DNA of 19,419 nucleotides from Deinococcales bacterium (lineage in GTDB: Bacteria; Deinococcota; Deinococci; Deinococcales; JAAFIG01). The DNA lies in assembly GCA_043778225.1 (NCBI GenBank), contig JAYWGM010000067.1:1-19419 (forward strand), in the 5' to 3' direction. Position numbers: made by a program. Each line of letters starts with the position of its first letter. The stretch's first letter is position 1. This document shows positions 13,872 through 16,800 of the stretch, in pieces.

Positions 13872-16800
13872 TAAGCCAAGAGGTTTTTTCGTGGGTCAAT
13901 AAATCTGCGTCTGGTGATTAAAATTCGTTTTGCCAGACGCAAACCGGCTGCTTGTAGCACATCTAGTGGCAGTTGGGTCAGGCTGGTTATCTCGAGCCTG
14001 ACCCATTCTTGGTAGGGGCAGCCTTCTTCTTCGTAGAGCAGCACAAAACTCTGTTGAGTCTCGAGATAAAAAACACCAAGTAAGCCGTCAGCAATTTTGT
14101 GCGCCTTTAGGATTGCCCATGCGGCGTTCAGTGCAGCTTCGTCCTCGAGTTGGCTCATAATTTCTTTTGGAAAATTCGATAGCGTTTATAGGGAATTGCC
14201 CCCAAGGCTCGCATCCCGTTGTTAATTGCCTCATTGCTCTCGAGTGTCCAACCAAATTCGCCACTGCTGTACTTTTTTTGCCCTTGCTGGAAAGTTTCGG
14301 CGTACAGCAAAGCATCTAAGCCACGTCCTTGGAAATCGTTGAGGATACCCAAAGCAATCAGCCGCATTCGGGTGTACTTAAAAAATTGCAATTTAAGCAG
14401 CCCGAATGGCAAGAGCTTACCTCCTGTACCGGGCAAGGCTTGATTTAAGTCCGGTAAAACAACACTAAACGCCACCGCTCTACCATCTATTTCGGCAATA
14501 TAGCTAATTTGTTGGTCGGCAGCTTGCCCCAGTTTATTTTTTAATTTCTTAATTTCGGCATCCGTCCACGGTACAAAACCAGCATTTTGACTCCAAGCAC
14601 TGTTATAAATGGCTTGGATATGCACCGCTTCGTCATCTAACTTCTTAAAGTTAATCGGGCGCAAAGTGACTTTTAAGTTGCGTTTGACCCGTTCTGCAAT
14701 CCGCACGATGCGTTCGGGTAAGCCTTGCTGCACCGTCATTTTCCAAGCAAAAGTGTCGTCGTATTTTTGGTAATTGGCAGCCTCAGACCAAGCAATATAC
14801 TCGAGTGGGTTGTAATTCATCATGATCGTTGGCGGGTCGTCAAAGTTTTCCATTAAAAACCCGTGCATATCATTTTGTTCGACTTTGCTCGGACCGATGA
14901 TTTTGGTCAAACCACGTGTCCGCCCCCAATTTTCGACTCGCTCGAGCAGCGCTTTGAAAATAGCGGCGTTATCGGCTTCGAGACTCGAGAATAAAACTGA
15001 ATTTTCTGAGCGAAACTTATTAAAACTTTGATCGAGAATCGCGGCGATGCGTCCAACCACTTTGTTGTTCTCGAGCGCAATAAAAAGCTCAATTTCGGCA
15101 TGGTCAAAAAAAGGATTTTGTTTGGGGTCGGTGTCAGCCCATTCTTGAATCAGTAATGGTGGAACCCAAGTTGGATGGTGACGGTATTTTTGATAAGGGT
15201 ACTCAATCCACAATTTGCGCTCGGCTCGAGTGGTGACACTTTTTATTTCGGTCATGGCTACAATTTAGCCTTTTTTCGGGGTCGGGTGCAATTTTACAAC
15301 ACAAGAGGTCAAGACATGAGTAAAATGGCGTATGTTCCTATACGCATCTCGGCGAATCGTGGCAATGATTCCGATTCTATTGGCAGTCTCGATGGCTATT
15401 TTTGGCTTGATTCAATTACAACCGGGCGATTTTATCGATGAAATGCGCCTTGCCAATCCAAAGATGACTTCTGCCGATGTGGTTCGACTGCGCCGCGAAT
15501 ATGGTTTAGACCAACCGTGGTATGTGCAGTATGGCAAATGGCTCAATCGTGCAGTGCGCCTTGACTTTGGCTTGTCTCGAGAAAACGGCTATGAACCAGC
15601 TGCCAACTTTGTGTTTGAACAACGCCTTGGCAACACCATCACTTTATCGGCAACAGCTTTTTTTATAGCCCTCTTAATTGGCATCCCAATTGGTATTTAC
15701 GCAGCCGTGCGGCAGTACAGCTTACTGGATTACATCACCACTTTTTTATCGTTTGTTGGTTTTAGTGTTCCAGTCTTTTGGCTTGGCATCATGATGCTGA
15801 TTTTATTTGGTGTAACTTTTAAGATTTTCCCGATTGGCGGAATACAAAGCGAAGATGTCAGTATTTATGTAGAAAGCCCAGTCCAATTTGATGTCACGGG
15901 ACAAGTCAAAAAAATAGCTTCTCGAGACGGCAATAGCATCATTACTATTGGGGTCTACAACGATGCCTCAAAACTCGAGATTCCCAAAGAATTTACACTC
16001 CCATCTGGGATTCGCCCCGCCGTGCTGACTGGCGATTATGTCTCCCAAGGACAAAGCGTCGGGCAGGAAGTCACCGCCGAATCGTGGTGGCGCTGGCTGC
16101 TTGACCGACTGCATCATTTGGTTTTGCCTGCGGTGGCGCTCTCGATTATTTCGATTGCTGGCTGGACTCGTTTTATGCGTGCCAGTTTACTCGAGGTGAT
16201 CAATCAAGATTTTGTGCGTACCGCTCGAGCCAAGGGTTTAACCGAACGAATTGTGATTTATAAGCACGCCCTTCGCAATGCCTTAATTCCGATTGTGACG
16301 CTGGTTGGTTTGTCGATCCCCGGTATCTTAAACGGCGCAGTCCTGACCGAAACCGTATTTAATTGGCCCGGCATGGGAACAGCCCTTTTAGACAGTGTGA
16401 TTAAAAAAGATTACAACGTTGCGATGGTGATTCTAATGATGCTCAGCATTGTAACGCTCGCCGCCAACCTTTTAACCGACCTCGCTTATGCACTGGTAGA
16501 CCCACGCATTCGCTATAACTAAAAAAGGAAAAATAATGACAACCACCATTAAAAAAGACCAAAGTTCTGGCTCAAAAACTTGGCAGCGATTCACCAAACA
16601 CCGTGCAGCCATGATTTCTGCTGTGGTGCTGCTGTTGCTACTGCTGGTTTCGATTTTTGCGCCAATCGTCGCACCGTATGCCCCAGATAAAATAGATTCT
16701 TCAAACCTCTATTCGGCTTCCTCGAGCCTGCACTGGATGGGAACAGATGGCTTAGGACGTGATGTCTTCTCTCGAGTTTTACACGCTGGGCGGGTTTCTT

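What a model noticed while it worked through the whole genome (the two positions that open the first line are those of the whole stretch)
14155..15255. Predicted ceramide (sphingolipid) pathway in a Deinococcota family
The genome encodes unlinked homologues of all three enzymes of the bacterial ceramide pathway: serine palmitoyltransferase (g01786, C49:10781-12025), bacterial ceramide synthase bCerS (g02507, C67:14155-15255) and ceramide reductase CerR (g00361, C15:1662-2618), plus a Bacteroides-type 3-ketodihydrosphingosine reductase (g01309). I read this as sphingolipid synthesis in the outer membrane of this diderm lineage, which also keeps lipid A genes (lpxA, C, D, B, msbA, lptF/G). New would be sphingolipid production in the phylum Deinococcota, confined to two of its families.
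Evidence so far: Swiss-Prot best hits: g01786 41-43% identity over 391 aa to characterised Spt of Sphingobacterium and Bacteriovorax (E 1e-108); g02507 36% over 374 aa to Caulobacter bCerS (E 3e-62; 32% to E. coli YghO); g00361 31% over 316 aa to Caulobacter CerR (E 6e-26; next hit GalE 26%); g01309 36% to B. thetaiotaomicron KDSR. tblastn of g02507 in 80 sampled Deinococcales genomes at E 1e-30: 16 of 16 of this family (57-80% identity), 12 of 16 of one other family (35-42%), 0 of 16 in each of the three other families. Lipid A genes: calls 6, 13, 14; LpxC in 154 of 364 genomes of the order. Full-text searches 'bacterial ceramide synthase' with Deinococc*, and sphingolipid with serine palmitoyltransferase a [...]
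(Added by a program. Inside this text positions count along the whole contig: contig position 1 is position 1 of the stretch shown here. "Call 12" and the like, gene names such as g00115 and contig names such as C1 are that model's own, and its searches are not shown. The text may have been shortened before it was handed on; [...] marks where a part breaks off. The agent that wrote the report below was given it as the finding of a first reader that could run no searches.)

Follow-up and report, generated by a model that had tools for sequence, protein, structure and literature searches.

The report
Ceramide synthase gene in uncultured Deinococcales
This gene very probably encodes the bacterial type of ceramide synthase, and with two partner genes elsewhere in the genome it should let this uncultured relative of Deinococcus make sphingolipids, a known pathway in a group where I found no published report of it.

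Summary
The ORF at 14155-15255 (minus strand, 366 aa) is real. It is a tandem-GNAT acyltransferase of the family that holds the bacterial ceramide synthases (bCerS). The two partner genes also exist: an Spt-like alpha-oxoamine synthase on C49 and a CerR-like SDR on C15.

The main caveat was that the genes are unlinked. Comparative genomics answers most of it. In a second family of the phylum (f5, Trueperaceae by record titles), orthologues of all three lie together, usually as spt-bCerS-(CPBP protease)-SDR-GT28 glycosyltransferase-flippase-like gene. In the window's own family (f1), one genus keeps bCerS next to cerR and another keeps cerR next to the flippase-like gene.

At E<=1e-10, bCerS matches 18 of 18 f1 relatives, 105 of 128 f5 genomes and 0 of 216 genomes of three other families. 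Within f5, bCerS and Spt are present or absent together in 125 of 128 genomes. Trees put both proteins among cluster-linked relatives, apart from Kbl/BioF and from E. coli YghO.

There are no lipid data. I could not compare directly with the Caulobacter enzymes. The 2022 survey and the supplements of the 2024 Black Sea study, which predicts sphingolipid genes in 40 phyla, could not be read. Verdict: a new member of a known kind, of moderate interest.

The parts
14155..15255 (-). bCerS-type ceramide synthase candidate (P0001, 366 aa), a tandem-GNAT N-acyltransferase
   Evidence: ORF. Pfam GNAT match on residues 39-119 only, 27.9 bits. AlphaFold model with pLDDT 87.8; best PDB folds are tandem GNATs (2wpw, 5kf1, 7q3a, MshD), TM about 0.6. 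Orthologues are adjacent to spt in 13 of 13 f5 loci fetched, and 48 of 80 loci from other phyla hold an Spt homologue within 5 kb. Trees.
13871..14158 (-). Small ORF P0002 (95 aa) whose start overlaps the bCerS stop by 4 nt; function unknown, probably co-transcribed, not a conserved pathway part
   Evidence: ORF. No Pfam or NCBIfam family. Found downstream of bCerS in 6 of the 7 same-genus loci (69-80% identity) and in none of the loci from other f1 genera.

Best explanation
P0001 is the N-acyltransferase (bCerS) of a bacterial ceramide pathway. The inferred route has three steps. First, the Spt-like PLP enzyme (C49:10781-12025) condenses serine with a long-chain acyl thioester to give 3-ketosphinganine. 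It probably uses acyl-CoA, because no dedicated ACP or ACP-synthetase gene lies nearby and its closest characterised relative is the Sphingobacterium enzyme. Second, P0001 transfers a second acyl chain from acyl-CoA to the amino group. Third, the extended SDR (C15:1662-2618) reduces the 3-keto group to give dihydroceramide. The order of the last two steps is disputed even in Caulobacter. A GT28/MGDG-synthase-like glycosyltransferase and an LPG_synthase_TM (MprF-flippase-like) membrane protein (C15, about 92.8-95.0 kb, in an operon with an ABC transporter) may then add a sugar and move the lipid. What is shown: homology, fold, conserved catalytic motifs, co-occurrence and synteny in relatives. 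What is inferred: substrates, product, order of steps, the head group, and a location in the outer membrane.
For: (1) Fold and family. P0001 has a tandem-GNAT model. It aligns over its full length at 34-42% identity with homologues from many phyla, and at 27-34% with those of Sphingomonas longa, Novosphingobium, Sphingopyxis and Caulobacterales MAGs.
(2) Synteny. In all 13 f5 loci fetched, spt and bCerS are adjacent on one strand. 11 of these 13 hold a CerR-like tblastn match, and a 12th holds an Epimerase-family SDR by Pfam. In f1 genus g3, cerR lies directly downstream of bCerS (G135:C166). Among 80 loci from other phyla, 48 hold Spt and 39 hold a CerR-like gene within 5 kb.
(3) Co-occurrence. 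All three genes are found in 17 of 18 f1 relatives; the one miss is CerR in G131, which is 57% complete. In f5, both bCerS and Spt orthologues occur in 98 genomes, bCerS alone in 2, Spt alone in 1, and neither in 27 of 128. All three exceptions have the lone match within about 150 bases of a contig start, or no listed partner on a short contig.
(4) Spt identity. The best PDB match is the Sphingobacterium SPT at 340 bits, against 264 for the Thermus BioF/KBL. The best NCBIfam model is SerpalmtaseCFB. TFSKS (Lys268), DDAH and NHAS align with the SPT. In the tree, f1, f5 and Rubrobacteraceae form a clade (SH-aLRT 100) separate from the Kbl clade that holds E. coli Kbl and the second synthases of f1, f2, f4 and f5. 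G000 has no BioB or BioD by tblastn with the E. coli proteins, so a BioF role is unlikely.
(5) CerR identity. It has GATGFIG at residue 6 and YGQSK at residue 132. 45 of 51 cluster-linked SDRs hit this gene as their best match in G000, usually at about twice the score of the next paralogue.
(6) Scattered genes are normal in known producers. In Sphingomonadales the ceramide genes are spread over the genome (PMC11324152, passage), and in Bacteroidota the three genes are not close (PMC11334938, passage).
Against: There are no lipid data for any member of f1 or f5. The three genes are unlinked in G000 itself. P0125 scores 418 bits against NCBIfam's Spt equivalog, below its cut-off of 640. P0126 reaches no curated cut-off; its best model is HpnA at 86 bits against 368. 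P0126 is only 27-35% identical to the f5 cluster SDRs, and at E<=1e-20 only 36 of 128 f5 genomes match it. P0125 is the only alpha-oxoamine synthase found in G000 (genome 89% complete), so a housekeeping Kbl-like role cannot be fully excluded. P0001 is about as similar to E. coli YghO (32%) as to the sphingomonad proteins. No direct comparison with the characterised Caulobacter proteins was possible. The trees are quick LG+G4 searches with SH-aLRT support only. In the second bCerS tree the midpoint root falls at a weakly supported fork (SH-aLRT 40) between f5 and the rest, so the f1-f5 sister grouping depends on where the root is placed.
Confidence: 0.78

Rival explanations
1. The same three enzyme types make a related but different amino lipid. 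The synthase would condense another amino acid (alanine or glycine giving 1-deoxy bases, or cysteate giving a sulfonolipid), so the product would not be a canonical serine-derived ceramide.
For: Substrate choice among alpha-oxoamine synthases cannot be read from sequence. P0125 also matches a cysteate-C-fatty acyltransferase structure at 230 bits. It stays below the curated Spt cut-off. 1-Deoxyceramides are abundant in nature (PMC11334938, abstract passage).
Against: The match to the Sphingobacterium SPT is much stronger (340 against 230 bits). The best NCBIfam models are Spt models. The cluster partners are those of the ceramide pathway.
Confidence: 0.12
2. P0001 is a YghO-like GNAT of unrelated or unknown function, P0125 is the cell's Kbl or BioF, and P0126 is one of many sugar-nucleotide-type SDRs. 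Their presence together in one genome would then be coincidence.
For: The genes are unlinked in G000. P0125 is the only alpha-oxoamine synthase found in G000. SDR paralogues are numerous (15 first-look candidates in G000).
Against: bCerS and Spt are present or absent together in 125 of 128 f5 genomes. Orthologues are adjacent in f5, f6 and many other phyla. P0125 lies outside the Kbl clade. BioB and BioD are absent. 45 of 51 reciprocal best hits point to P0126. YghO sits in a separate proteobacterial branch with Sphingomonadaceae, and its Citrobacter orthologue lies 2-4.5 kb from an Spt-like synthase and a CerR-like SDR.
Confidence: 0.05
3. The genes are what they seem, but in this family the pathway is not used as such: it is silent, condition-specific or partly decayed after the cluster broke up.
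For: Linkage is lost in f1. One f5 genome (G336) carries a bCerS copy with 10 in-frame stops. There are no expression data.
Against: All three frames are intact, and they are conserved at 49-91% identity across five f1 genera, which argues for purifying selection.
Confidence: 0.05

Closest known systems
Caulobacter crescentus ceramide pathway: Spt (CC_1162), CerS/bCerS (CC_1154), CerR (CC_1164), with AcpR (CC_1163) and AasR (CC_1165). Sources: Olea-Ozuna 2021 and Stankeviciute 2022, as summarised in PMC11324152 and PMC11087976 (passages read)
   Same: The same three enzyme classes: a PLP alpha-oxoamine synthase, a GNAT-type N-acyltransferase and an NAD(P)-dependent extended SDR. They occur together in one genome. 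Homologues in Caulobacterales and Sphingomonadales belong to the same protein family as P0001.
   Different: No dedicated ACP or acyl-ACP synthetase lies next to any of the three genes. The Spt is nearest to the Sphingobacterium/CFB type. The genes are dispersed in f1. In f5 the cluster carries a CPBP/Rce1-like protease, a GT28 glycosyltransferase and an LPG_synthase_TM protein, and I saw none of the phosphoglycerate head-group genes described for Caulobacter. The Caulobacter sequences themselves could not be fetched.
Sphingobacterium multivorum serine palmitoyltransferase (PDB 3a2b, 8guh)
   Same: Best solved relative of P0125: E 1.4e-100, aligned over residues 29-415, with the PLP-lysine motif TFSKS and the DDAH and NHAS motifs conserved.
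   Different: P0125 falls below NCBIfam's equivalog cut-off for this type (418 against 640 bits). Its substrate is untested.
E. coli YghO (b2981)
   Same: Same tandem-GNAT family; 32% identity over 374 aa.
   Different: YghO falls in a proteobacterial branch (SH-aLRT 99, 24 rows) away from the Deinococcota clades. In K-12 an IS5 element abuts the gene.
[quoted passage not shown]
   Same: A ceramide backbone combined with a glycosyltransferase gene is the predicted content of the f5 cluster.
   Different: The glycosyltransferase here is MGDG-synthase/GT28-like and is paired with an MprF-flippase-like protein. This pairing was seen only in Deinococcota and one Rubrobacteraceae locus: 1 of 80 loci from other phyla. 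No product is known.

Membership tests
Bacterial ceramide synthase (bCerS / CerS, CC_1154 type) | GNAT-superfamily N-acyltransferase of about 360-390 aa with two GNAT-like halves | tested here: met
   Pfam GNAT match. AlphaFold model with pLDDT 87.8, whose best PDB folds are tandem GNATs.
Bacterial ceramide synthase (bCerS / CerS, CC_1154 type) | Full-length homology to the protein of sphingolipid-producing Alphaproteobacteria | tested here: met
   27-34% identity over about 375 aa to homologues in Sphingomonas longa, Novosphingobium jiangmenense, Sphingopyxis, Sandarakinorhabdus and Caulobacterales MAGs. All fall in one family in the tree.
Bacterial ceramide synthase (bCerS / CerS, CC_1154 type) | Direct similarity to the characterised C. 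crescentus enzyme | not testable with these tools
No tool returned that sequence.
Bacterial ceramide synthase (bCerS / CerS, CC_1154 type) | Genomic association with spt and cerR | tested here: met
   Not met in G000 itself, where the genes are unlinked. Met for its orthologues: 13 of 13 f5 loci fetched, the f6 locus, bCerS-cerR adjacency in f1 genus g3, and 48 of 80 loci from other phyla.
Bacterial ceramide synthase (bCerS / CerS, CC_1154 type) | N-acylation of a sphingoid base or 3-ketosphinganine | not testable with these tools
   A biochemical assay is needed.
Serine palmitoyltransferase (bacterial Spt) | PLP-dependent alpha-oxoamine synthase with the conserved Lys, His and Asp | tested here: met
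   Pfam Aminotran_1_2, E 7e-51. TFSKS at 265, DDAH at 234 and NHAS at 158 align with PDB 8guh. That these motifs are the catalytic ones is recalled.
Serine palmitoyltransferase (bacterial Spt) | Branches with bCerS-linked synthases, apart from Kbl and BioF | tested here: met
   the f1+f5+Rubrobacteraceae clade has SH-aLRT 100. The Kbl clade, which includes E. coli Kbl, is separate and also has SH-aLRT 100.
Serine palmitoyltransferase (bacterial Spt) | Reaches a curated equivalog cut-off | tested here: not met
   Best model SerpalmtaseCFB, 418 bits against a cut-off of 640. No alpha-oxoamine synthase model reaches its cut-off.
Ceramide reductase CerR (CC_1164 type) | Extended SDR with an N-terminal GxxGxxG and a YxxxK | tested here: met
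   Pfam Epimerase and 3Beta_HSD matches. GATGFIG at residue 6 and YGQSK at residue 132.
Ceramide reductase CerR (CC_1164 type) | Orthology to SDRs encoded inside spt-bCerS clusters | tested here: met
   45 of 51 cluster-linked SDRs have C15:1662-2618 as their best hit in G000. The f5 copies are only 27-35% identical.
   LpxC is clear (E 1.3e-51). LpxB is marginal (26 bits), and the model also fails in LpxC-positive relatives. lpxA, lpxD and msbA were not tested in G000.

The most novel reading that the evidence does not exclude
In Trueperaceae and in the window's family, the ceramide is turned into a glycosylceramide by an MGDG-synthase-like GT28 enzyme and handled by an MprF-flippase-like (LPG_synthase_TM) membrane protein. 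That protein would be a first candidate for the sphingolipid flippase that the field says it has not yet identified (PMC11087976, passage). In Trueperaceae genera without LpxC, the glycosphingolipid would take the place of lipopolysaccharide, as in Sphingomonas.
Probability: 0.25. Interest if true: 0.6.

Novelty: new member of a known kind. Interest (0 to 1): 0.38.

Why it matters
If the lipid is made, sphingolipids extend to the Deinococcus-Thermus lineage. This is an old diderm group whose envelope differs from family to family: some have LpxC and some do not. It would give a compact set of genes for asking what sphingolipids do beside, or in place of, lipid A. The gain is modest, because sphingolipid genes are already predicted in about 40 bacterial phyla. 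The more useful leads are the added glycosyltransferase and flippase-like genes, and the existence of a cultured genus in the sister family (recalled) where the prediction could be tested by lipid analysis.

Tried and rejected
- Stankeviciute et al. 2022: not held under its DOI or its PMC id.
- ISME J 2024 supplements: the zip file is too large to read.
- Literature searches. 'sphingolipid' + 'Deinococcota' gave 20 papers, judged by title and the start of the abstract as microbiome or metabolome co-mentions. 'Truepera' + 'sphingolipid' gave 5, of the same kind. 'serine palmitoyltransferase' + 'Deinococc' gave 3, unrelated by title and abstract start. 'Deinococc' has 0 occurrences in the main text of PMC11334938 and of its preprint. 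One search with min_terms 2 was too loose and useless.
- Caulobacter reference sequences: the control genomes of the genome search give no handles, and two alignment scans of genome contigs returned no Caulobacter record. Sphingomonadaceae and Caulobacterales MAG homologues were used in their place.
- NCBIfam and PDB sequence searches with P0001 gave nothing useful.
- LpxB (PF02684) and LpxD (PF04613) as markers of lipid A loss: rejected. LpxB is missed in 4 of 4 LpxC-positive f5 controls, and LpxD in the one LpxC-positive control tried.
- My first greedy ORF caller picked spurious opposite-strand frames in GC-rich loci; I replaced it with tblastn mapping.
- No consensus sigma-70 promoter lies upstream of P0001.
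- The 235-aa membrane ORF upstream of spt, and the 73-aa and 229-aa ORFs upstream of cerR, are not conserved partners.
- No CPBP/Rce1-like orthologue of the f5 cluster gene was found in G000.
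Full report
**The gene and its window**

Window 14155-15255 (minus strand) is an intact 366-aa frame, P0001, and the only copy in the 4.03-Mb, 107-contig genome, which is 89% complete. 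Its neighbours are unrelated to lipids:
- a 95-aa ORF (P0002) that overlaps its stop;
- prolyl-tRNA synthetase;
- two Opp-type permease genes, read divergently;
- EPSP synthase, thymidine kinase and a DDE transposase.

Pfam sees only a weak GNAT domain in the N-terminal half (27.9 bits). NCBIfam and PDB sequence searches give nothing. An AlphaFold model built on a 24-sequence alignment is confident (pLDDT 87.8). Its best PDB matches are tandem-GNAT acyltransferases: the clavulanate-pathway protein 2wpw, glucosamine N-acetyltransferase 5kf1, MAB_4324 and mycothiol synthase, at TM about 0.6.

**The two partner genes**

C49:10781-12025 (P0125) is a PLP-dependent alpha-oxoamine synthase.
- Its best solved relative is the Sphingobacterium serine palmitoyltransferase (340 bits), ahead of the Thermus BioF/KBL enzyme (264), the Sphingomonas SPT (256) and Kbl (about 230-246).
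- Its best NCBIfam model is the CFB-type Spt, at 418 bits against a cut-off of 640. No model of this superfamily reaches its cut-off.
- The TFSKS, DDAH and NHAS motifs align with the SPT structure.

C15:1662-2618 (P0126) is an extended SDR with GATGFIG and YGQSK motifs. It has no curated assignment. No ACP or acyl-ACP synthetase gene lies beside either gene.

**Distribution in the phylum**

I searched all 364 genomes held for the phylum, G000 included. The family tallies below leave G000 out. The f5 tallies include G324, which is flagged unpublished; without it each f5 count that includes it drops by one.

| Protein (call, threshold) | f1 (own family) | f5 | f6 (another class) | f2, f3, f4 |
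|---|---|---|---|---|
| P0001 (E<=1e-10) | 18 of 18, 57-80% identity | 105 of 128, mostly 35-43% | 1 of 1 | 0 of 216 |
| P0125 | 73-91% identity; one copy cut at a contig end | 54-61% identity in 99 of 128 | adjacent pair present | no match above 41%, E about 1e-80 |
| P0126 (E<=1e-20) | 17 of 18, 49-86% identity | 36 of 128, 27-35% identity | 0 of 1 | 14 of 216, weak (29-36% identity) |

- f2 is dominated by one genus of 111 genomes.
- Five of the f5 matches to P0001 are only 28-30% identical and look like a second, divergent copy.
- P0125 splits its matches cleanly into two classes, orthologues and distant paralogues.
- The single f1 miss for P0126 is a genome that is 57% complete.
- Within f5, orthologues of bCerS and Spt are both present in 98 genomes and both absent in 27. 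Three are discordant (G326, G358, G274).
- Record titles of related loci name f1 only as 'Deinococcales/Deinococcota bacterium' MAGs and name f5 relatives as Trueperaceae or Truepera.

**Synteny, the key new evidence**

The coordinates showed that the f5 matches lie side by side. I fetched 13 f5 loci. I chose them mostly from the most contiguous assemblies, so they are not a random sample. In these 13 loci:
- spt and bCerS are adjacent on one strand in 13 of 13;
- a CerR-like match lies nearby in 11, and a 12th has an Epimerase-family SDR by Pfam;
- a CPBP/Rce1-like membrane protease lies in 8;
- a GT28/MGDG-synthase-like glycosyltransferase lies in 9;
- an LPG_synthase_TM protein lies in 11.

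There are exceptions. By the printed coordinates, the two genes are on different contigs or far apart in at least G263, G264, G265, G268 and G336, and the G336 bCerS copy has 10 in-frame stops.

The f6 genome also has the adjacent pair.

Two links survive inside the window's own family. In genus g3, cerR lies directly downstream of bCerS (G135:C166). In genus g4, cerR is followed after 12 nt by the LPG_synthase_TM gene (G136:C28).

G000 keeps that flippase-like gene next to a GT28 gene and an ABC transporter at C15, about 92.8-97 kb. In all three f5 genomes tested (G342, G259, G304), its best match is the copy in or beside the ceramide cluster. It has no match in 5 complete genomes of f2, f3 and f4. 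That sample is small.

**Outside the phylum**

An alignment-based scan returned 80 loci from many phyla, including Acidobacteriota, Gemmatimonadota, Zixibacteria, Myxococcota (with the cultured Archangium gephyra), Bacteroidota, Chloroflexota, Planctomycetota, Spirochaetota and Rubrobacteraceae. All are 34-42% identical to P0001.
- 48 of the 80 hold an Spt homologue within 5 kb, and 39 hold a CerR-like gene.
- 45 of 51 such linked SDRs hit P0126 as their best match in G000.

A second scan was led by E. coli YghO. It returned Sphingomonas, Novosphingobium, Sphingopyxis, Sandarakinorhabdus, Nitrosomonas and Caulobacterales records, which are 27-34% identical to P0001. 25 of those 79 loci hold Spt.

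**Trees** (quick IQ-TREE, LG+G4, SH-aLRT support only)

- bCerS, (112 rows, YghO as outgroup): f1 is one clade (support 100). It groups with the f5 cluster genes, two Rubrobacteraceae and two Acidobacteriota (98), nested among spt-linked sequences.
- bCerS, (72 rows): YghO falls in a proteobacterial clade (99) with Sphingomonadaceae and Caulobacterales. The f1-f5 neighbourhood is compatible, but it is a clade only if the root lies elsewhere.
- Synthases, (78 rows): f1, f5 and Rubrobacteraceae form one clade (100). A separate clade (100) holds E. coli Kbl and the second synthases of f1, f2, f4 and f5.

G000 has no second synthase and no BioB or BioD.

**Literature**

- The Caulobacter pathway and its gene numbers come from passages of PMC11324152. 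That paper also says that the genes are scattered in Sphingomonadales.
- For PMC11087976 I read the preprint's abstract and outline and passages of the journal version. It gives the three-enzyme scheme and the dispute over the order of steps, and it states that no flippase or transporter has been identified.
- Passages of PMC11334938 say that the 2022 survey inferred sphingolipids in 9 phyla and that the Black Sea data raise this to 40. They also say that co-localisation is not required.
- Neither that paper's main text nor its preprint mentions Deinococc*, and its supplements could not be read.
- The 2022 paper itself was not seen.
- My searches found no report of sphingolipids in Deinococcota or Truepera.
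- Earlier notes of this scan describe several spt-bCerS clusters in other phyla as ordinary members of the known pathway. I reach the same class here on my own tests.

**Verdict**

P0001 is a bCerS-family acyltransferase. Together with P0125 and P0126 it most likely gives this uncultured Deinococcales family a ceramide pathway, inherited from or shared with Trueperaceae, where the genes are still clustered.
- This is a new member of a known kind.
- The phylum-level novelty is plausible but unverified.
- The lineage-specific glycosyltransferase and flippase-like extension is the part most worth an experiment.

Noticed in passing
window 13871-14158 (-): A 95-aa ORF (P0002) overlaps the bCerS stop by 4 nt. 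It has no family and is conserved only within the window's genus (6 of 7 same-genus loci, 69-80% identity; none in other f1 genera).
   Followed up: partly
L022-L032, L039 (f5 genomes), e.g. L029:5488-11932: Trueperaceae-type cluster: spt - bCerS - CPBP/Rce1-like protease - SDR - GT28/MGDG-synthase-like glycosyltransferase - LPG_synthase_TM. This looks like a glycosylceramide gene set. Outside Deinococcota the last two genes were seen in only 1 of 80 loci.
   Followed up: partly
L092 (Rubrobacteraceae MAG) 2434-7953; L154, L157, L169, L211: Rubrobacteraceae and other Actinomycetota MAGs carry the same five-gene cluster. Their Spt is 71-76% identical to the Trueperaceae query, closer than the window's own family at 58-60%, and their bCerS nests among f5 sequences. 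This suggests transfer between the two phyla.
   Followed up: partly
G256, G257, G258, G263, G265, G276, G289, G336, G338-G341, G357 (f5): Thirteen Trueperaceae genomes have the spt-bCerS pair but no LpxC match. They include all three genomes of genus g35, which are 96-99% complete. This may be a Sphingomonas-like envelope without lipid A. LpxB and LpxD could not serve as a check.
   Followed up: partly
L228 (Citrobacter amalonaticus) 1513-7113; L120:14044-16341 (E. coli K-12): The Citrobacter orthologue of YghO (83% identity) lies 2-4.5 kb from an Spt-like synthase and a CerR-like SDR. In K-12 an IS5 element abuts yghO, and no such genes are annotated nearby. YghO may be the remnant of a decayed ceramide-type cluster.
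   Followed up: partly
G272:C127:22292-23392, G294:C89, G300:C127, G320-G323: Some f5 genomes have a second, divergent bCerS-like copy (27-30% identity to P0001) on long branches. In G294 and G320-G323 it is the only copy, and no Spt orthologue is present.
   Followed up: no
G000 whole genome: There are no BioB or BioD matches with the E. coli proteins, and only one alpha-oxoamine synthase. The organism may need external biotin, though the genome is only 89% complete. G000 also gives three LptF/LptG matches.
   Followed up: no
window 18531-19361 (-): A DDE-type transposase ORF (276 aa) lies at the end of the contig.
   Followed up: no
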